Source: Stegostoma tigrinum
Taxonomy: Eukaryota
Reading direction: 5' to 3'
Assembly: GCF_030684315.1 (NCBI RefSeq)
Contig: NC_081362.1
Location: forward strand, 95,649,187 to 95,713,186
DNA length: 64,000 nucleotides
Of this stretch, positions 46,293-64,000 are shown in pieces; the first letter of the stretch is position 1, and each line of letters opens with the position of its first letter. The notes under the pieces were generated by a model. The model saw only the letters and a program-made list of their open reading frames with translations. It was not told the DNA's origin and made no database searches. A program made the translations under genes and the position numbers.

Positions 46293-46670
46293 CTAACAGA
46301 AGATTTTATAGATTACATCCTGGGCACTATTCAAATGTACCAAGCCACCCCACAAGCTCTCTTTAGCCTGTGCCGCATCTGTGCTGCGCTCTCCAGCCCT
46401 CGGGGTCAGTCCCAGGAACTTGACCTCCCTCAACCCTATCTGTGCCTTCTTAGGGTTTACCTTCAACCCGCTCTTGCACGCGAGGTGTAACAACTCACTA
46501 AGTAGGGGGCTATGTTCCTCACTATTGTCTGTGAACAACAGCATGTCATCCACGTACTGTACAAGCCTGTGTGGCTCACTGAAATCTTTTAAACAGTCTG
46601 CCACACGCTGGTGGAGAATTACTTGCAAGACTCTGCACTCTGTGCCGGGTTGAGTACAGTGATTCTCCAC
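46293..46670 (-). mobile_element. Endogenous retrovirus pol (RT) fragment
   Basis: LVQYVDDMLL...LLHLACKSGLKVNPKKAQIGLREVKFLG, a class I retroviral-type RT motif C-E pattern. Confidence 0.8.
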
Positions 46671-48865
46671 ACCTTGTACTTGCTTGGTAATAAAAGCATT
46701 TGTGTTTTTCTAAATAGGTCAGTGTCTTGTTATTGCAGCAAGTCCGTGAGGGTCTCCGAAAACAAACTTGACAGCAGATGGAATACAATGAGAGAAAATG
46801 TGAGGTTACAAGAAAAGCAGGCACAGACTACTTCCTAAACAGGTAAAGGCTTCAGAAATCTGAAGAACAAAGACTTGGAACGCCTAGTTCAAGATTCTCT
46901 AAAGGTTAACAAGCAGATGCAGCTGGCAGTCAGCAAGGGAAATGTAACTTTAACATTCATTTCAAGAGGGCTAGACTACAAGAAGAGGGATATAATACTG
47001 AGTCCGTACAAAACTCTGGTCAGACTGCATTTGGAATATTCTGAACAGTTGAGCTCCATTACCTAAGAAAGAAAAGCTGGTATTGGAGTTCAGAAGAGGT
47101 TTACAAGAACAAACCCAAGGATGAAGGGCTGTCAACGAGTTGTGGGTGAACATACAGGGTCGGTACTCAATGGAATTTAGAAGGATGAAGGACGATCTGA
47201 TTGAAACTTACAGAATACTGAGAGGCCTGGATACTGTGGGCATGGAGAACATGTTTCCACTAGCAGGAAGTCGGAGTTTTGGATACTGAGGAATGCAGCA
47301 GCATAGAGATCAACTGCAAAGTTGGGCAGAGAAATAGCAGATGGAATTTAATCTGGCCTAGTGTGAGGTGAAGCATTTTGGGAAGTCAAATGCAAGAGGA
47401 AAGTATAGAGTAAATGGCCAGACCCTTATGAGCACTGATATACAGAAAGATCTTGGGGTCCAAGTCAACAGCTCTCTGAAAGTTGCAACACAAGCGGATA
47501 AGATGGTAAAGGTGGTGTATGACATGCTCCGTGATTGGAGCACTGACTATAGAAGGTGGCAAGTCATGTTGCAGCTGTATAAACCTTTGGTCAGGACACA
47601 TTTAGTCACCACTCTATAGGAAGGATGTGGAGGCTTTGAAGAGGGTGCAAAAGAGGTTTACGGTTTCGAATGGATAGAACCAAACAAAAATATGAAGGGA
47701 ATGGATACGGTGGACAGTCAGAGTCTTTCTCCTAAGATGGAAGTGTAAAATGCTAGGACACATTGGCTTAAAATGAGATGGGAGCAGTTTAAAAGGAGAT
47801 GTGCCAGGTAAGTTTTCTTTGTAAAAAGTACAGGTGGTGTTCGGTGCTGGGAACATGCTGCCAGAGGTGGTAAAAACAGCAAAGTTAACAAGGTATTTAG
47901 ACAGACACATGAAGGAGCAGAGAACAGAGGGATGCAGGCTGTGTGCAGGCCGATGGGATTAGTCTAGAACAGCATTGTGGTTTGCACAGACAGGGTAGGC
48001 TGAAAGGCCAGTTCCTGTGTGCACTGTTTGATGTTTTAGGAGAAATTAGGACCCAAGGGAACAGACTCAGACTGAGGAGATGACCCTTTAGAAAGAAGAT
48101 GAGGAATTTCTTCAGCCAGAGGGTGGTGGCTCTGTGCAACTAATTGCTGCAGAGGGCTGTGAAGGTCAAGTCACTGGAACATTGGTTAAGACAAAGGCAG
48201 ATTCTTGATGTGCAAAGGGATCAAAGGTTACACAGGGAAGGCAGGAGAATGGGCTTCAGAAACGTATCAGCCATGATCAAATGGCACATCTGACCTCGAT
48301 GGGCCAAAAGACCCAATTCTGCTTCTATAACTTATGGTTTGCTTGACAATGCATGGATGACATTATAGCAGTAATCTTGTTGAGTGACATGGTGACACGG
48401 AGCCAAAGGCTACCACAGCAGCTGATTAATTGAATTTGGACTAAATTATATTTATTAATTGATTTAGTGTTGCTAAAAAAAAAAAGCATGTGACAAAGCT
48501 TTCCATCATGTATTCATCAGGACAATCTGCAAGAATACCAACAGTAAAAAGGGAACAACATTTAGACTGAGATGAGAGTACTAGTTGGTTGACAACTGGG
48601 ACTCTCATTAGTCAAGGTGCTGTCTTGGATAATGAGGATTGACAGGCAAGTGCCAGGATTTGTTTATATTTAAACCAAGCAGGTTGATGCTGATCATTAA
48701 AAACATTACTCAGTGGCTTTTTTAGGGAAATTACATTCCCATGAAATAGCACAGAAACGAAATGAACCAAGCAGACAGACAGAGGAAAGATCATATGTAA
48801 TTTCAGCTTTTCAGTTTGCACAGCAGTGAAGGGAAAGGGTGTGTGTGCACGTCTCAGATGCTTAC

Positions 48866-48990
48866 CGTAAAATCCCAAATCATATCGCTTTCTTGTTACC
48901 ACCAACTCCAACAGACAGCGACAATCAGTACGAAAGCACAAACACTCGCACCAGTCGCACCGATGACTGTACCCAATGATACCCTGTGAA
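48866..48990 (-). CDS. Transmembrane exon of the butyrophilin/B7-like gene (125 nt; in-frame stop at 48896-48898)
   Basis: Acceptor tgttttgcag|, donor TACG|gtaagc. Phase 1 reads (I)HRVSLGTVIGATGASVCAFVLIVAVCWSWW*. Confidence 0.65.
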
Positions 48991-50471: not shown

Positions 50472-50753
50472 TCAGCGTGAAAGTAGACGACAATCCCTCA
50501 TCCAGCTCCTGGTCCCACATCGTGCATGTGTAGTTGCCAGTGGGCCAGTTATCCATTTCTAGCGTGCTCTTCACACAGACACTGCCACCTGTGCAGTTAG
50601 TTAGCTGTGTGTGCGAGTAGCTGGTCAGATTCTCGCCTAGTCCATTTTCCCAGATCACGCTAGGAGCCGGGTACCACCCTGAGGACTCGCAGACCAGCAC
50701 CAATAGACCCAGGTCATCGGAAGGTGAATGAATGACAGGCTGCGTGCCAAGAG
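50472..50753 (-). CDS. Butyrophilin/B7-family IgC exon (282 nt, phase 1-1)
   Basis: tttttcctttgcag| (A)LGTQPVI..LVLVCESSGWYPAPSVIW..GNYTCTM..TFTL A|gtgagt. CxSxGWYPxP is a BTN/B7 hallmark. Confidence 0.9.
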
Positions 50754-53979: not shown

Positions 53980-56900
53980 GAGACATATAGCATGGAAACA
54001 GACTGTTCGGTCCAACTTGTCCATGCTGATCAGATATTCTATATAAAATCGAGTCCCATCTGCCATTAAAACCTTTCCAAACGCATACCCATCCAGATGC
54101 CTCTTAAATGTAACTATATCAGCCTCCACCACTTTCTCTCATCGCATATATGCGCCACCTTCTACATGAAGAAGTTGCCCCTTAGGTGCCTTTTATATCA
54201 TTCCCCTGCCACCTTAAACCTATGTCCTCTAGTTTTGAACTACAACACCCTGGGGAAAAGACCTAGTCTATTTATCCTATCCATGCCCCTCATGATTTTA
54301 TAAACATCTACAAAGGTCACACCTCAGCCTTCGACTCTCCGGGAAACAGCGCCAGCCTATTCAGCCTCTCCCTGTAGCTCAAACCCCCCAACCCTGGCAA
54401 CATCCTAAATCTTTTCCGAACCTTTTCTAGTTTCACAACTTCCTTCCTAATGGCAGAGAGACCAGAACTGCATGCAATACTGCAAAGGTGGCTGAGCCAA
54501 AATGTCCTGTGCAGCTGCAACATCCCAACTCAATACACTGAACAATAAAGGCATGCATACCAAACGCCTTCTTCACTGTCTTGTCTACCTGCGACCCTAC
54601 TTTCAAGTTTCACTTGCAAGGTCTCTTTGTTCAGCACCACGCTTCAGGACATTACCATTAAGTGTATGCAAATCAGGGCAGAATGTCTTTCCAAAATGCA
54701 GCACTTATTTATCTAAATTAAACTCCACCTACCACTCCCTGGTCCACTGGCCCCTCTGAACAAGATTTCATTGTACTTTGAAGTAACCTTCTCCACTGTC
54801 CACCACATCTCCAATTTTATGTGTCATCTGCAAACTTACTAACCATATGTCCCATGTTCACATGCAAATCATATAGAAAATGACAAAAGGCAGTGGACCT
54901 AGCATTGATACTTGTAGTACACTGCTGGTCACAGGCCTTCAGTCTGAAAAGCAACACCCATCACCATCCTCTGTCTTTGACCTTCGAGCCAGTTCTGTAT
55001 ACAAATAGCTACCTCTCCCTGTATTTTGTGTGATCTAACTTAGTTCACCAATCTACCACGAAGAACCTTGTCAAATGCCTTACTGAAGTCCATATAGATC
55101 ATATCCACCACTCTGCCCTCATCAACTTCTTCAAAAAAAACTCAATCAAGCTAGTAACACACGATTTTCCATGTACAACGCCATGTTGACTATCCCTAAG
55201 CAATCCTTGGCTTTCTAAATACATGTACAGCCCATCCTTCAGGACTCCCTCGAACAACTTGCCCATCGCCGATGTCAGGCTCACTGGTCTATAGTTCCCT
55301 GACATTTCCTTTCCACTTTCCTTAAATAGTGGCAACACGTTAATCAACCTCCAGACTTCCGGTACCTCACCTGTGGCTGTCAATGATAAAAAAGTGTCTC
55401 AGTAAGGGGCTCAACAGTCTCTTCCCTAGCTTCCCAGAGTTCAAGCATACACACCGAGTTGGCTTGCTTCCGTTCAGACGTTTCTTCACCATGCCAGGTA
55501 ACATCATCAGCGAGGCTTCCTACAAAGCAATGTTGTTTCACTCTGCTTGGGATTTATATTGTCCGGTCTGTTACGGTGAGTTGTGTCATTCCTGGTTTTG
55601 GTTTGTATATAGGTTCAATTCTAAAATGTTTATTGATTGCATTATGGGTTGAGAACCATGCCTTTAAGAATTCCTGCCCATGTTTATGTTTGGCTTGGGC
55701 TACTATGGTTATGGCGTCCCAGTTAAACTGTTGGCCTTCACTGTCCAAATGTATGATATTAGGGAAAGTTAATGGTGTCATTTTGCTGCTAGCTGATGTT
55801 TCGTGTATTCTGGTGGCTAGTTTCCTTCCTCTCTGTCTGATGACATGTTTGTGGCGATCGTTGCGTGGTATTTTGTAAACCATGTTGGTTCCACATGTTG
55901 TGGGAATGGGGTCTTTAATCCTTGCGAGTGTTTGTCATAGAGTGGCTGTGGGCTTGTGGGCCACCGTGATTCCTAGTGGTCTTAGAGACTTGTTGTCAGT
56001 CCTGATAGGTTCTTCATGTAGGGCAGTGTGGCCAGTGTATTAGGGTGTACTGTGTCCTCTTGTTGTCTATTTAGTAGGCACTTACAGATGAAGTTGCAGG
56101 ATAATCGTTTGTAGCGAAGATTTTGTATAGGTACTCTTCCTCTTTCCTGCATAGTTCTGGCATGTTACAGTGAGTAGTGGGGCGTTTAAATAGTGTCCTA
56201 ATACAGCTTTGTTTGTGGACGTTGGGGTGGTTGCTGTGGAAGTTGAGGATTTGTTCAGTGTGGGTTGCTTTTCTGCAGAGTGAGGTTTGGAACTCTCTTT
56301 TGGCCATATGATCAACTCTGATGTCCAGAAATGGAAGCAGATTGTGGTTTTCTTCTTGTGAATACGTTGATGATGAGGTGGTGGGTCTCCAGTTTGGTGC
56401 TTTTAATGATGACAAACGTGTCATCCATGTACTGGGTCCACAGTTAGGTTGAAGGAGGTAGGCTAGTGTGTTCTAATCTTTGCATGACTGCCTCTGCAAT
56501 GAATCCTCAGATGGATGACCCCTAGGTGTGCCATCGATCTGTTTGTATGCTTGGCCATTAAAGACAAAGTGTGTGGTGAGGCACAAGTCTCGTTACTTAA
56601 CTATGTTGTCATTGCTGATGGAGCTGCTGCTTTCTCTAATAATGTGGCCACACAGTTTCCTTTAGCTAGTGGGATGTCGAATGATGTGTTTAGAGCTATG
56701 ATGTCAAAGGAGGCCATAACCTTGTTGTCACCGATTTTTATCTTCTTTAGGGTATTGAGGAATTCTTGGGTTGAGTGGATGGAATGGCATGATCCATCGA
56801 CAAGGTGTTTCGGTCTCCGTTGTAGGTCCTCAGCCAGATTGTGTGAAGGTGTGCCCGTAAAACATGAGACAATGCATCTGAGGGGGATGTCTAGTTTGTG

Positions 56901-58170
56901 TATTTTAGGGAGTATGTAGAAGTGGGGGAGATGGCATGGGGGTGGTGGTGTTTGTATTTTCTGGTTTCATTCACATGTAGTTCATCTTGGTTATCTGTCC
57001 TGCATCCTTTCATCTCTTCAGTGTCTGGGTGACCCTACTTCCCAGCTGTAATGTTGGGTCTATCGCCCCCTGTTGGTAAGTGAATTCCTAGAGGCATGGC
57101 TCTCAATCCATAATGCAAATCAACAAAGAATTGGACCCCATATACAAACACATACAGGGCAAAACTGGAAGTGACAATTCACCATAACAGACCAGCCAGT
57201 ATAAATTCCAAATGGAGTAGAACAACATCGCTTCATCAGAGGCCTCACTGGTGAGTTTACCTAGCTTGGTGACGAAACATCTGAACGAAAATAAGCCAGC
57301 TCAGCAAGCAAGTCAATAGCCTCACCCACAACCCGAGCTATAAATCTTTTCAAAAACCTTCCAGCGTACACCTTTATGCATTTTAAGATGTTCAGCACCT
57401 CCACTTTTGAAATATGGACATTTTTCAAGTTATTGCTACTTTTCCCCATGATCTATGTTCCAGATCCTTCTCCACAATAAACAATGATGGAAAATGCTAG
57501 TTTCGTATCTCACCCATCTCCTGGGTTCCACACGTAGGCAGCCTTGCTGATCTTCAAGGGGCTCTTCTCCCCCCCCTCTCCCCCCCCAACCCCGAGTACT
57601 CTTTTGCCCTTAATGTACTTATAGAATCCCTTTGGATTCTCCTTAATTCTATTTGTCGAAACTATTTCATGTCCCTCTTTTTATCCTCCTGATTTCCCTC
57701 TTAAGTATACTCCTACTGCCTTTACACTCCTCTGGGACTTCACTTGATCCCTGTTGTCTGTACCTGACATTAACTTCCTTCTTTTTCCTAGACCAAAACG
57801 TCAATTTCTCTAGTCATCCAGCCTTGCTCTTCACCTTAATGGGACCATATTGTCTCTGGACTCCTGTTATCTCATTTGTGAAGGCTTCCCATTTTCCAGC
57901 CATTCTTTTACCTGCAAACATCCGCCCCCGATCAACTTTTGATCGTTCTTGCCTAATACCTTCAAAATTGACCTTCCTCCAATTTAGCACTTGAATTTTT
58001 AGATCCCATCTATCCTTTATTATCACTATTTTAAAACTAGTAGAATTATGATCACTGGCTCCAAAATATGCTCCACCATCGACAGCTCAGTCACCGGCCC
58101 TGCCTTATTTCCCAGGAGTAGGTCAAGTTTTGCACCTTCTCCAGTAGGCACATCTGCATACTGATTCAGA
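53980..58170 (-). mobile_element. Decayed CR1 (53980-55440 and 57361-58170) interrupted by a Poseidon-type element
   Basis: GNYRPVSLTS, SQHG, LNWRKVNFEGIRQE and GAKLDLLLGN on the - strand. Confidence 0.85.
55455..57360 (-). mobile_element. Decayed Penelope/Poseidon-type element with an inverted arm (~57083-57360, +); hammerhead motifs at 55477-55510 (-) and 57248-57281 (+)
   Basis: LPFLDI..SNHPNVHKQSCIRTLF and VYKIP..GRKLATRIHE..QEFLKAW. The + strand arm repeats the 3' end including the terminal extension. Confidence 0.85.
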
Positions 58171-60143
58171 AACTTGTGAAGCTTGAGTTTTTGTTTTAAG
58201 AAATTTTGAACAATAGAAGCACCCTGAGTGGGTGTGATCATGCTCCCACCCACAGTTCCAGGATTTTTAGCTTTCAGTGGCAGTTGCTGTTCAGGTCTTG
58301 AAGTGGAAGCTACCTTTCCCCCCCACCCCCTCTCAATCACAGCCAAAAGCAGGGTGTTCTCTTCCTGGGCTGCTGGATTGCACAAAACAAATCTGTTTGG
58401 CAAATGTGCCTTTTTGCCAAAAAGGTGTGTTAATGGAATGTTACTATACTAAATAGTTAATTAGTAATTGTTAGTGTACCCAGTATTCTGTTAATTTTTC
58501 CAACAGAGTCAAGTTATCCTGAATTCCTCTTTCTTTGCGTATATTTTAACTACAGTCTTTGAATAAAATGTGTTTTGCTTAACGTCAAGTAGTTCAACAA
58601 GCCGAACTGTATCTGAAACACCACACCTAATGTTTTACCTTTAAAGTAAGAAAAGGTTAGGGTCTAGGCTACCTTCTTAATATATTGCGAGGGGTCTGGT
58701 CTGGTCCATAACACCACCCTAGCTTAGGCCCCGTGATCAGTATCCCAGGCCATAAAAGGAAACAGATTCACAAGAGCTGCTGTTCTATATCCTCAGTGAC
58801 TGGGAAAGACTTGAAACAGTTATATTGGACAGAAAGAACTCTCACGATTATTACAAAGCAAAACAAAAAGGCAGGATGAGTAAGCTGTAGAGATATGACC
58901 CTAACCTGAGCTGCTCACCCCAAATCCCTTAAGACTGAAGATGCCTACTTCTGCTCCTGCATAGTATAAACCATCTCCACACTTCAGTTCAATTGGCTAC
59001 ATGGCCAGAGGATGAGGCAGAATGACTTTTACTGTGGAAATTGAAGGCCCGCATAGCTCCTTGTCTTGTCCCTAGCTTAACATGCAGACCCTCTCAAGTT
59101 GTGTAATCAATTCACACTTTCTCTGTTCAACAGGGGTAGACGCGATCACTTGTGAACTATGCAGTTACCATACAAATCAGCCCATTTGCTGGGGGAAAGT
59201 GGCCCATGGTTGTGTTATGTCCAGGTACAACTTGTTTGAGACTATTGTGGTCAGACCCACAATCTCCATAAATCTGAGCACCTACAAAACTGGGCTGCCC
59301 AAATCTTAACTCATCCAAAATCAAAAGTCCCATTCTTCAATTATCCTTCCAGGAAAGAAATCTAGGTGTGCAAGGGACTCCAACATGACTGATCCTCAAC
59401 TGGCTCACTTCAGAGGGTAGTTATCAGCCCGATCTGCAGGCAACCAGGGAGATGGAAAATAGAAATCCACCTTGCCAGAAACCCCTCCACTGCACGAAAA
59501 AGAGGGTAATAATAATTATAATTTCTAAAAACTCCACCCACAGAGGAGTCACCACCCAGGAACCAATAACATTTAGTAGATCAAATGTGCACTGTATAAC
59601 AACCAATGAGACGATTACGGTATATACGTTACTTTTATCAGCCCAACGAGATGACAGACAATGCATTCCAAGGCAGAGGCATCATACACGTTTTAAATTA
59701 CCTTGTCCAGATGGGAGCAGCAGTACTTCCATTGAAAGTACTCCTCTCCAGATCCCTTCTGCTTTTAAAAAGCACTGATGAATAAGGAGGCAGCAATGTG
59801 GCACATTGTGTTAGAGCTCTGACATACGACCACAAGTAATAGCAAATGTCTCAAGCCATGATCCCAATCCCACACACGATGATTTCCTGGACTCGCTTGA
59901 GCTGCTGTGGAAAGATGCTGGGCGCAGATTGAGGGAAGGAACACAAACAAAGCCCAGGACAGGATTTAATTTTGATTTTTAAAAATATATATATATATCT
60001 GTATAATAAATGCTTTTAGTATCCAAGTTTAAATACTGCTTTTCTCCAATCATGATCAGACTGACACCTGTACAAGAGTTTCTGAAAGAAGCAATGAATC
60101 CATTTTTGTTTTCGTCAATGAGATGAGAGTTACCTATTCTTAC

Positions 60144-60491
60144 CTCTTATACTGAGCAAGACTTGCATCTCAGTGCTTTGGGAACGGGTGGCAACGGAGA
60201 GTTTGTAGATACCAGAGTCAGAGAGAGTAATGTTCCTCAATCTCAGAGACACATTCCCTTTTGGAATCTCATTGTCAAAGACCTCGACTCTGTCACGGTA
60301 GCTGGGCTCCTGCTCCTCCAGGCTGCTGTGCCTCATTGTGTAATTGTAGATAATCCCTGCAGCATCCTCCTTCTTCCAAACGAAAGCCACGCTGCCAGCC
60401 TTGTTTCTGGAATAAAACCGGCACTGGATGATGTCATCTTCCCCAGCCTTGGCCGTGATTTGCTCCTCTTTGCACTTCACTTTAACAGGAC
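60144..60491 (-). CDS. Butyrophilin/B7-family IgV exon (348 nt, phase 1-1)
   Basis: tcaatctacag| GPVKVKC..GEDDIIQCRF..FVWKK..QEPSYRDRVEVFDNEIPKGNVSLRLRNITLSDSGIYKLSV..LSIR G|gtaaga. Splices in frame to the IgC exon. Confidence 0.9.
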
Positions 60492-61689: not shown

Positions 61690-62511
61690 TAGAACATAGA
61701 ACATAGAACAGTACAGCACAGAACAGGCCCTTCAGCCCACAATGTTGTGCCGACCATTGATCCTCATGTATGCACCCTCAAATTTCTGTGACCATATACA
61801 TGTCCAGCAGTCTCTTAAATGACCCCAATGACCTTGCTTCCACAACTGCTGCTGGCAACGCATTCCATGCTCTCACAACTCTCTGCGTAAAGAACCTGCC
61901 TCTGACATCCCCTCTATACTTTCCACCAACCAGCTTAAAACTATGACCCCTCGTGCTAGCCATTTCTGCCCTGGGAAATAGTCTCTGGCTATCAACTCTA
62001 TCTATGCCTCTCATTATCTTGTATACCTCAATTAGGTCCCCTCTCCTCCTCCTTTTCTCCAATGAAAAGAGACCGAGCTCAGTCAACCTCTCTTCATAAG
62101 ATAAGCCCTCCAGTCCAGGCAGCATCCTGGTAAACCTCCTCTGAACCCTCTCCAAAGCATCCACATCTTTCCTATAACGGGGCGACCAGAACTGGACGCA
62201 GTATTCCAAGTGCGGTCTAACCAAAGTTTTATAGAGCTGCAACAAGATCTCACGACTCTTAAACTCAATCCCCCTGTTAATGAAAGCCAAAACACCATAT
62301 GCTTTCTTAACAACCCTGTCCACTTGGGTGGCCATTTTAAGGGATCTATGTATCTGCACACCAAGATCCCTCTGTTCCTCCACACTGCCAAGAATCCTAT
62401 CCTTAATCCTGTACTCAGCTTTCAAATTCGACCTTCCAAAATGCATCACCTCACATTTATCCAGGTTGAACTCCATCTGCCACCTCTCAGCCCATCTCTG
62501 CATCCTGTCAA
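61690..62511 (-). mobile_element. Young 5'-truncated CR1, same subfamily as 32016-34915, inserted into a + strand LINE fragment (61500-61689, 62512-62570)
   Basis: ORF 61778-62503 differs from the 32 kb ORF2 C-terminus at 3 of 241 residues. (TAGAACA)n tail. Confidence 0.95.
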
Positions 62512-62574
62512 TAACCTAGAAGGACCAGGGCAGCAGATACATGGTCACGCTACTTCCTCAAGTTCCCCTTGAAA

Positions 62575-64000
62575 CAAATATATAAAACAAAAAAAAAGTG
62601 GCTAAGGTCAACATTGGTCCTTTAGAGTATGAGAAGGGAGATTTAATAATGGGAAATAAGGAAATAGCTGAGGCATTGAACAGGTATTGTGTGTCGGTCT
62701 TCACAGTGGAGGGCACAAGTAACAATGCCAGTAATTGATGACTAGGAGACTAAGGTAAGCGAGGACACAATCATTAACACGAAAGAGGGAGTTTTGGGCA
62801 AGATAATGGAGCTAGAAAGTAGACTAGTCTCCTGGCCTTGATAGAATGCACCCCAGGGTACTAAGAGAGATAAGTCGGAGAAATAGCAAACATGCTCGTG
62901 GTAATTTTCCAAAATTCACTGGACTCTGGGCAGCTCCAGCAGATTTTTAAACAGTGGTGTCACATTTGCTGTTTTTCAAAGGAGGTAGACAAAATATGGG
63001 GAATTATAAGCTGGCTAGCTTAACTTCTGTGGTGGGGACAATGCTTTCAATTATCAAGGAAGAGACAGCAAGACATCCAAGTGGAAATTGTCCCATTGTG
63101 TAGACACAGCATGGGCTCACAAAAGGCAGGTCATGCTTAACTCACTTACTGTTATTCTATGAGAACGGTATGAGCAGTGGACAACAGGGGCCCAGTAGAT
63201 GTAGTGTAACTGAATTTCCAAAAGGCATTCAACAAGATGCTGCACAGAGGCTGCTGCATAAGATAAAAGGTGTTACGGGCAAGTATTAGCATGGATAAAG
63301 AACTGGTTATTGAACAGAAAGTCAACAGTGGGGATAAATGAGTCCTTTCATGGTTGGCTATCAGTGGCTAGTGGTCTGCTGCAGGGATCAGTGTTGGGGC
63401 CGTAATTGTTTACAATTTACATAGATGATTTGGAGTTGGGAACCATTTGTAGTGTGTCAATGTTTGCAGAGGGATATAGATAGTTTAAGTGAGTAGATAA
63501 AAGGTCTGGCAGATGGAGTACAATGTTGATAAATTTGAAGTCGTCTAATTTGGGAGGAATAAGAGTGAAAAGGACGATTGTTCGAAAAGTAAAAAAAATT
63601 GCAGTATACTGCTGCGCGGAGGGACCGGTGTGTCCTTACTCACGAATTGCAGAAGGTTGGTTTTCAGGTATACCAGGTAATTAAGAAGGCAAATGGAATT
63701 TTGACCGTCATTGCTAGACAGATTGAGTTTAAACACAGGGAGATTATGCTGCAGCTGTATAGGGTGCTGGTGAGGCCACACTTGAAGTACTGTGTGCAGT
63801 TTTGGTCTCTTTACTTAAGAAAGGATGTATTGGCACTGGAAGGGGCGCACAGTAGATTCACTAGGTTGATTCCAGAGTTGACAGCGCTGGCTTATGAGGA
63901 GAGATTGAGTAGACTGCGATTATATTCTTTGGAATTTAGAAGCGTGTTGGGGGGGGGGGGGGAAGAGCTGATCTTATACAAACATGTAAAATTCTTAAGG
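62575..64000 (+). mobile_element. Decayed CR1 ORF2 fragment running off the window
   Basis: NYKLASLTSVVG, GRSCLT, QGSVLGP and LYRVLVRPHLKYCVQFWS with many disruptions. Confidence 0.85.

What the first reader, a model, noticed from the sequence alone, without database searches (positions are those of the whole stretch)
60144..60491. Butyrophilin/B7-like IgV domain lacking the canonical F-strand cysteine but carrying an A-strand cysteine
Seen: the DxGxYxC motif reads DSGIYKL (codon CTC, two substitutions from TGC). The B-strand Cys (IIQC) and core Trp remain, and an extra Cys sits near the N-terminus (VKVKC). The frame and splice sites are intact, with three N-glycosylation sequons (NYT, NVS, NIT). 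Established: B7/BTN IgV domains normally use the B-F disulfide, whereas CD2-type V domains lack it. Inference: a divergent shark B7/BTN subfamily with an alternative A-B disulfide or free cysteines for dimerisation.
Basis: partly seen in the sequence, partly recalled or inferred. Interest (0 to 1): 0.7.

Follow-up and report, generated by a model that had tools for sequence, protein, structure and literature searches.

The report
Shark B7 protein, relocated disulfide
This is the outer-domain exon of an intact, spliced B7-type immune surface gene, one of three neighbours kept across sharks and rays, in which one of the two cysteines that normally staple the immunoglobulin fold is replaced by leucine and a new cysteine on the neighbouring strand likely forms a sideways bond instead, a layout already reported for human SECTM1.

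Summary
Observation confirmed. The exon encodes the IgV domain of an intact gene (leader–IgV–IgC–hydrophobic end, no tail) that matches RefSeq XP_048391825.1 and is found as spliced contigs. Two paralogues lie 58 and 91 kb away. In 47 distinct shark and ray IgV domains of this clade, none has the F-strand cysteine, and 45 carry an A-strand cysteine exactly 17 residues before the B-strand one (the other 2 are truncated). dN/dS is about 0.1, so this is not decay. The clade is well supported, lies outside the butyrophilins, and is not at the B7-H4 or SECTM1 locus. Best reading: an A–B cross-strand disulfide replaces the B–F bond in a tailless B7-type ligand. The bond was not measured; it rests on co-conservation, strand register and precedent (KIR2DL4 crystal structure, SECTM1 model). 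The layout is therefore not unprecedented; I found no description of the subfamily, but the main B7 evolution paper was unavailable. Extra finding: genes A and B have repeatedly exchanged the C'–F part of this exon by gene conversion. This scan noted the same feature twice before in other genomes.

The parts
60144..60491 (-). IgV exon of gene A (115 codons, phase 1/1)
   Evidence: splice joint 60144/50753 in contigs
60472..60474 (-). A-strand Cys (C6 of the exon, C43 of XP_048391825.1), 17 residues before the B-strand Cys
   Evidence: present in 45 of 47 distinct clade domains; last residue of strand E40-43 in the model
60421..60423 (-). B-strand Cys (C23 of the exon, C60 of the protein)
   Evidence: invariant in alignments
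60376..60378 (-). Core C-strand Trp (W38)
60199..60201 (-). Leu codon CTC at the position of the canonical F-strand Cys; the same codon stands in all three paralogues
   Evidence: Leu in 40 and Val in 7 of 47 distinct clade domains
60175..60354 (-). Approximate gene-conversion tract (codons 46-105, strands C' to F) shared with paralogue B
   Evidence: 89-91% nt identity to gene B against 44-58% in codons 1-45; segment tree groups by lineage
50472..50753 (-). IgC exon (B7/BTN-type C domain) with the canonical Cys pair and an extra C-x5-C pair near the D-E turn
   Evidence: extra pair in 19 of 19 gene A proteins and 0 of 38 gene B/C proteins
48864..48990 (-). Exon with the hydrophobic C-terminal segment and the stop codon (48898-48896); protein ends WSWW with no cytoplasmic tail; a further intron follows in the 3' UTR
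   Evidence: helix 252-276 in the model

Best explanation
The exon encodes the membrane-distal IgV domain of an intact, spliced, tailless B7-family surface protein of an elasmobranch three-gene clade, in which the F-strand cysteine is replaced by leucine and the B-strand cysteine likely bonds instead to a new A-strand cysteine beside it in the same sheet. Shown: gene structure, splicing, conservation, purifying selection, the clade, a confident B7/BTN-type predicted fold. Inferred: the A-B bond; that Leu/Val fills the core left by the lost Cys; that the change went through a three-cysteine stage (A+B+F), of the kind still seen in the shark gene at the B7-H4 position, followed by one loss before the three genes arose; and that the protein works like B7-H4, as a ligand displayed on the cell surface that signals through a receptor on lymphocytes rather than into its own cell. 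My odds: functional gene 0.97, A-B bond 0.75, lymphocyte co-regulatory ligand 0.6.
For: Gene: four exons read in one frame and equal RefSeq XP_048391825.1; V-C and C-TM joints with GT-AG ends in contigs of 3 and 4 of 4 runs laid. Conservation: orthologues of gene A at 65-93% identity from carpet sharks, lamniform, ground, horn, sevengill and saw sharks, skates and rays; 47 distinct clade IgV domains, 0 with F-Cys, 45 with C-x16-C, 2 truncated before the A-Cys. Selection: 5:2, 5:2 and 13:5 synonymous to non-synonymous among the listed differences in three relatives, dN/dS 0.09-0.10. Contrast: outside the clade an A-Cys at -16/-17 occurs in only about 13 of 164 proteins or loci, so its fixation where the F-Cys is absent is not a family default. 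Fold: pLDDT 86.9, about 98 over residues 41-60, C43 on strand A and C60 on strand B; best matches PD-L1 and BTN ectodomains, Z about 20, rmsd 2.5-3 A over about 210 residues. Register: an engineered Cys4-Cys25 A-B bond forms in V domains (PMC10641266); 6-23 is the next pair on that ladder (inference). Precedent: KIR2DL4 Cys10-Cys28 A-B bond in crystal structure 3WYR; SECTM1 Cys38/Cys55, also 17 apart, modelled as a same-sheet bond. Three-Cys domains exist in the same genome (L051, L017). B7-H4 has the same V-C-TM plan with a very short tail.
Against: No Cys-Cys distance was obtained: the folding tool returns no coordinates. In the exhaustive VH cysteine scan the A-B library covered positions 6 and 23, yet Cys6-Cys23 was not among the enriched pairs, although pooled panning could lose pairs and VH differs from this domain. 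The SECTM1 bond is a restrained model, not a structure. dN/dS rests on partial lists (7 of 10, 7 of 10, 18 of 25 differences) and two non-synonymous counts fall in one codon. The sister group is unresolved (76/2 with the B7-H4-position gene), so the three-cysteine route is not shown. No receptor, tissue or function data exist here; the runs are not on record as RNA. Four clade domains carry a third, unconserved Cys.
Confidence: 0.72

Rival explanations
1. The A-B bond is not merely structural but a strained, reducible allosteric switch (RHstaple type) that would tune receptor binding or trafficking, as in KIR2DL4.
For: The KIR2DL4 A-B bond is an -RHstaple reduced by PDI, also in the Cys74Ser mutant that has only the A and B cysteines (abstract and section 6). 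Cross-strand bonds are often strained (established knowledge).
Against: KIR2DL4 switches between two bonds using a third Cys; this clade has no third conserved Cys in the IgV. A buried Leu core and fixation across sharks and rays fit a structural role equally well. Nothing here measures lability.
Confidence: 0.12
2. One or both IgV cysteines are unpaired within the domain and would serve for interchain dimers or stay as buried free thiols, the domain being held by its hydrophobic core as in CD2-type V domains.
For: V domains without a B-F bond fold (CD2 type, recalled; 27 teleost-type domains lacking the B-Cys). Cys6-Cys23 was not recovered in the VH scan.
Against: Both Cys are fixed together at one spacing in 45 of 45 complete domains; an unpaired buried B-Cys would be expected to drift. 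By alignment the A-Cys sits at an inward-facing position (V in CD276; inference). The gene A ectodomain has six Cys that fall into three pairs.
Confidence: 0.1
3. The clade is the shark counterpart of mammalian SECTM1 (the CD7 ligand), and the shared cysteine layout is inherited rather than convergent.
For: Same 17-residue spacing and no F-strand Cys in SECTM1. No IgV exon was detected in 800 kb around the shark UTS2R/CYBC1 locus, so no other candidate orthologue was seen there.
Against: SECTM1 has one Ig domain and Trp at the F-Cys position, and was judged eutherian-specific by BLAST. Its neighbours UTS2R and CYBC1 are on contig C26, this cluster on C11. No SECTM1 cluster was among the rows shown by either Atlas search. 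A-Cys at this position has arisen in several separate branches. No SECTM1 sequence could be compared directly.
Confidence: 0.08
4. The Leu is decay in a pseudogene or a sequencing or assembly error.
For: Loss of an otherwise near-invariant Cys.
Against: Intact frame and splice sites, identical independent contigs, dN/dS about 0.1, same state in all 47 clade domains.
Confidence: 0.01

Closest known systems
B7-H4 (VTCN1, B7x)
   Same: Best single-domain sequence match in the PDB (4GOS, E=3e-15); leader-IgV-IgC-TM plan with almost no tail.
   Different: B7-H4 keeps YKC. The shark gene between a MAN1A-type gene and TRIM45, the recalled position of VTCN1, is another gene on C14 with A+B+F cysteines.
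Butyrophilins / BTNL / MOG
   Same: Same IgV-IgC fold (Z about 20); IgC matches Pfam PF22705; NCBI names several orthologues 'butyrophilin-like'.
   Different: No B30.2 domain or tail; separate branch from shark, bony-fish and mouse BTNs (95/93); the shark BTN-like cluster is on C44 and keeps YxC.
SECTM1 (K12), CD7 ligand
   Same: Two invariant Cys 17 apart near the N-terminus, none on the F strand, predicted same-sheet bond (PMC4603632); T-cell co-stimulatory ligand (PMC3769348).
   Different: Single Ig domain, Trp at the F position, reported as eutherian-only, different genomic neighbourhood. Kinship not shown.
KIR2DL4 D0 domain
   Same: A-strand to B-strand disulfide (Cys10-Cys28) seen in a crystal structure.
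   Different: Not a V-set B7 domain; keeps the F-strand Cys74 and switches between two bonds; spacing 18.
CD276 (B7-H3)
   Same: Top full-length PDB score because it has two V-C repeats; NCBI name of this gene is 'CD276 antigen homolog'.
   Different: A more CD276-like exon lies on C47 (L030) in another branch; CD276 keeps the B-F cysteines.

Membership tests
B7 family in the wide sense (B7/BTN IgV-IgC proteins) | Leader, IgV, B7-type IgC and a membrane anchor, each on its own phase-1 exon | tested here: met
B7 family in the wide sense (B7/BTN IgV-IgC proteins) | Sequence and fold closest to B7/BTN ectodomains | tested here: met
B7 family in the wide sense (B7/BTN IgV-IgC proteins) | Canonical B-F cysteine pair in the IgV (usual, not strictly defining) | tested here: not met
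   0 of 47 distinct clade domains have the F-Cys; hence filed as a variant
B7 family in the wide sense (B7/BTN IgV-IgC proteins) | Binds a CD28-family or other lymphocyte receptor and modulates T or NK cells | not testable with these tools
   no binding or cell data
B7-H4 / VTCN1 orthologue | Position between TRIM45 and MAN1A2 (human order recalled) | tested here: not met
   That position holds another B7 gene on C14; this cluster is on C11 beside GBP-, IRG-, NDK- and FAD-binding-type genes
B7-H4 / VTCN1 orthologue | Groups with the VTCN1-position gene in a tree | tested here: inconclusive
   support 76/2 in the V+C tree; no human B7 sequence could be put in the tree
B7-H4 / VTCN1 orthologue | Very short or no cytoplasmic tail | tested here: met
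   genes A and B end at the hydrophobic segment; gene C has a short tail
Butyrophilins (BTN/BTNL) | Cytoplasmic B30.2/PRY-SPRY domain (typical) | tested here: not met
   stop codon right after the hydrophobic segment; none in Pfam scans of A, B, C proteins
Butyrophilins (BTN/BTNL) | Falls inside the BTN branch | tested here: not met
   BTN 95/93 and this clade 99/98 as separate branches; AU p=0.034 against pairing with the A-Cys-bearing BTN1-like row
SECTM1 | Two invariant Cys 17 apart and no F-strand Cys | tested here: met
SECTM1 | G-x-Y-x-W-x-L-x-G-x-Q motif and a single Ig domain | tested here: not met
   motif; here G-I-Y-K-L-S-V-A-T-R-S and an IgC follows
SECTM1 | Locus beside CD7, TEX19, UTS2R | tested here: not met
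   UTS2R and CYBC1 on C26, cluster on C11
SECTM1 | Direct sequence or profile kinship | not testable with these tools
Siglec V-set domains (B-E bond) | E-strand Cys pairing with the B-strand Cys | tested here: not met
   E strand reads GNVSL, no Cys; sialoadhesin-like control P0104 has GKNCS

The most novel reading that the evidence does not exclude
An undescribed, roughly shark-and-ray-wide B7 subfamily records the migration of the immunoglobulin core disulfide from B-F to A-B through a three-cysteine intermediate still present in the shark gene at the B7-H4 position; the A-B bond is a redox-sensitive switch on a lymphocyte ligand, genes A and B keep a common receptor-binding surface by repeated gene conversion, and mammalian SECTM1 is a truncated descendant of the same lineage.
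Probability: 0.1. Interest if true: 0.78.

Novelty: new variant of a known kind. Interest (0 to 1): 0.45.

Why it matters
The B-F disulfide is the most conserved feature of the immunoglobulin fold. A natural B7-type V domain that has swapped it for an A-B bond, kept in three genes across sharks and rays, with three-cysteine relatives in the same genome, gives a compact natural series (B-F, A+B+F, A-B) for testing how a core disulfide can move and whether A-B bonds are structural or allosteric. It also adds a B7 branch that automatic annotation scatters under CD276, VTCN1, BTN and MOG names, which matters for reconstructing co-stimulation in the earliest jawed vertebrates. The interest is moderate: the layout has precedents, and no receptor or function is known.

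Tried and rejected
Single-sequence fold: pLDDT 35, discarded. Cys-Cys distance: not obtainable, the tool gives no coordinates. Homodimer prediction of the ectodomain: no verdict, score 0.00, no evidence either way. Run search: no RNA holder listed on record; only the spliced joints were used. IFT57 as a marker of the HHLA2 locus lies on C2 and did not identify L029; the GRF zinc-ribbon search did not find TTF2 on C14. ESM Atlas gave only generic B7/BTN/V-set clusters. No IgV exon found in 800 kb of C26 around UTS2R/CYBC1, but my profiles were not positive-controlled on CD7 or SECTM1, and short recalled CSNK1D motifs found nothing in the last 200 kb, so the interval is not bracketed. No chimaera or bony-vertebrate member among 41 profile hits, which is limited by word matching. 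Ten literature searches found no description of this clade; Flajnik et al. 2012 (PMC3709836) and Ohta and Flajnik 2015 (PMC4594805) were not held and were not seen, and no supplements were read, so a prior mention there is possible. Rejected: pseudogene, assembly error, butyrophilin, B7-H4 orthologue by position, Siglec-type B-E bond.

Full report
Observation. The stretch 60491-60144 on the minus strand is a 348-nt exon between AG and GT, phase 1 at both ends, with 115 open codons. It is a V-set domain (Pfam E=2.3e-11). The best solved relatives by sequence are B7-H4, CD276, MOG and butyrophilins.

The gene. tblastn with shark and ray homologues placed an IgC exon at 50753-50472 and a last coding exon at 48990-48896 in the window, and a leader exon 15 kb beyond the window end (G000:C11:95728244-95728187). 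The four exons read as one 260-residue frame contained in RefSeq XP_048391825.1 of Stegostoma tigrinum, named 'CD276 antigen homolog'. The protein ends in WSWW straight after the hydrophobic segment. Contigs of public runs join 60144 to 50753 (3 of 4 runs laid) and 50472 to 48990 (4 of 4) with GT-AG ends; two of these runs match with no differences. The runs are not on record as RNA, but only one 100% copy of the exon was found in the genome, so spliced transcripts are the simple reading.

A three-gene clade. The genome search gave 36 matches; the best two after the exon itself lie 58 kb (gene B, 65%) and 91 kb (gene C, 37%) away on the opposite strand. B is leader-V-C-TM without tail; C is V-C-C-TM with a short tail. 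All three have the A-strand Cys 17 residues before the B-strand Cys and CTC at the F position. Homologue searches returned members only from sharks, skates and rays, plus unnamed Logan records that cluster with skate proteins. Among 61 clade IgV domains, 47 distinct, none has the F-Cys (Leu 40, Val 7); 45 have C-x16-C, and the other two begin after that position. The clade has 100/100 support on the V domain (59 rows; bootstrap not fully settled) and 99/98 on V+C (24 of those rows); butyrophilins of shark, bony fish and mouse form a separate branch (95/93). The sister group is unresolved. No human B7 sequence could be placed in the trees.

Selection. Differences listed for three related organisms give 5:2, 5:2 and 13:5 synonymous to non-synonymous changes, dN/dS 0.09-0.10, binomial p 0.007, 0.007 and 1e-5. 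These lists are partial (7 of 10, 7 of 10, 18 of 25) and two changes share a codon, so the figure is rough, but it excludes neutral decay.

Where it sits. The neighbours on C11 are a GBP-type exon, an IRG/IIGP-type frame between B and C, an NDK-type gene (NME6-like by recalled likeness) and an FAD-binding exon. The recalled position of VTCN1, between MAN1A2 and TRIM45, is filled on C14 by another B7 gene (L051): glycosyl hydrolase 47 exons at 38.65-38.75 Mb, L051 at 39.04 Mb, TRIM45 at 39.12 Mb. The BTN-like cluster is on C44. UTS2R, a neighbour of SECTM1 in mammals, and CYBC1 are on C26. So the cluster is not the positional orthologue of B7-H4, the BTNs or SECTM1.

The cysteines. A model folded with a 74-row alignment has mean pLDDT 86.9 and about 98 over residues 41-60; C43 ends strand A and C60 lies on strand B. 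It matches PD-L1 and BTN ectodomains. The tool gives no coordinates, so the distance is not measured. The argument for an A-B bond is indirect. First, co-fixation: both Cys in 45 of 45 complete domains, with no other conserved partner. Second, contrast: of 164 non-clade proteins and loci, 154 have a plain B-F domain, 11 an A+B+F domain and 1 an A+B domain without F (a protein can count under several types). Third, register: counting as in a kappa V domain (my inference) the two residues are positions 6 and 23, on the same A-B ladder as the engineered Cys4-Cys25 bond confirmed by mass spectrometry in PMC10641266 (passages and section 5 read). Against this, that screen covered 6-23 and did not enrich it. 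Fourth, precedent: the KIR2DL4 D0 crystal structure shows an A-B bond, Cys10-Cys28, of strained -RHstaple type (bioRxiv 10.64898/2026.02.18.706601; abstract, sections 6 and 13 read), and SECTM1 has two invariant Cys at 38 and 55, none on the F strand, modelled under restraint as a same-sheet bond (PMC4603632, passages read). Both leads came from earlier notes of this scan and were checked in the papers.

A possible route. Three-cysteine domains stand in the same genome: L051 (spacing 16) and the BTN-like L017 (spacing 17), and in teleost BTN-like proteins, some of which add a G-strand Cys. They do not form one branch, so the A-Cys appears to arise repeatedly. Gain of the A-Cys, then one loss of the F-Cys before the triplication, explains the shared CTC codon, but the order is inferred, not shown.

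Gene conversion. The V exons of A and B are 44-58% identical over codons 1-45 and 89-91% over codons 46-105; among codons for the same residue 46 of 56 are identical in that tract against 7 of 14 before it and 18 of 47 in the IgC exon. Across 10 A/B pairs (nine species and one genus-level pair) the N-terminal part splits A from B (1 change, 99), whereas the C'-F part needs 6 changes and groups carpet-shark A and B together (97) and sawshark A and B together (87) (quick trees on 44 and 61 columns). Repeated conversion between the inverted genes is the likely cause; it may keep a shared binding surface, or simply follow from the arrangement.

How it works. With no tail the protein cannot signal inward by itself; like B7-H4, which has a very short tail without motifs (PMC13212089, passages read), it is most likely a surface ligand for a lymphocyte receptor. 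Sharks have the CD28-family repertoire (PMC11599192, passages read). Whether the hydrophobic end is a transmembrane helix or a GPI signal was not tested. Receptor and sign of the effect are unknown.

Novelty. The gene is annotated automatically under inconsistent names; the cysteine layout has precedents; ten searches found no account of this clade, but the main B7 evolution paper (Flajnik 2012) was not held and no supplements were read. Other papers looked at by term search only and without bearing: PMC10751288, PMC3964593, PMC13262535, PMC11926128, PMC3769348. Two earlier notes of this scan report the same feature in other genomes; they are not independent evidence. Verdict: a real, conserved new variant of the B7 family, interest 0.45.

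Noticed in passing
window 60175-60354 and G000:C11 about 95767290-95767470 (L002): Gene-conversion tract between the inverted paralogues A and B over strands C' to F, recurring in several lineages.
   Followed up: yes
window 50472-50753: Extra C-x5-C pair at the D-E turn of the IgC (C206, C212), present in 19 of 19 gene A proteins and 0 of 38 B/C proteins; C206 lies inside an N-C-T sequon. Intrachain hairpin bond or dimer link, untested.
   Followed up: partly
L051:4981-5439 (G000:C14 about 39.04 Mb): The B7 gene at the recalled VTCN1 position has A-, B- and F-strand cysteines, a KIR2DL4-like triad that could switch bonds.
   Followed up: partly
L017:1474-1884 (G000:C44 about 21.76 Mb): A BTN-like V exon with the same three-cysteine pattern; a sawfish relative with B30.2 shares it (P0157).
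   Followed up: partly
window 59734-59886: Intron sequence 260 bases after the V exon matches the alternative C-terminus of a stingray V-only isoform (P0007) at 75% over 51 residues, with a stop here; conserved element, repeat or alternative last exon that would give a soluble form.
   Followed up: no
window 48864: An intron begins 32 bases after the stop codon; one contig runs on for about 4.5 kb beyond it, suggesting a long 3' UTR.
   Followed up: no
L039:739-1504 (between genes B and C): IRG/IIGP-type GTPase frames, apparently in pieces; RefSeq model XP_059504844.1 fuses gene B, this piece and gene C into one protein, probably an annotation artefact.
   Followed up: partly
L058:8083-8331, L044:2761-3276, L048:4467-4610, L041:6430-9998: Neighbours: GBP C-terminal exon, NDK-type gene (NME6-like), FAD-binding exon (GULO-like by recalled likeness), and an unidentified coiled-coil gene. 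Two interferon-inducible GTPase families flank or interrupt the cluster.
   Followed up: partly
L011:2857-3288 and L053:6540-6902: Two other shark B7-like genes have IgC exons that lack both canonical cysteines.
   Followed up: no
proteins P0036, P0151, P0027 and others: Teleost BTN-like V domains with A+G cysteines besides B-F, a Sparus repeat protein with A+B but no F, and 27 domains lacking the B-strand Cys: cysteine patterns in this family are more fluid than usually stated.
   Followed up: partly
window 46296-46709, 55099-58448, 61778-62515, 63593-64000: Retroelement-like open frames; the first matches Pfam RVT_1, the others look like LINE fragments by eye.
   Followed up: no
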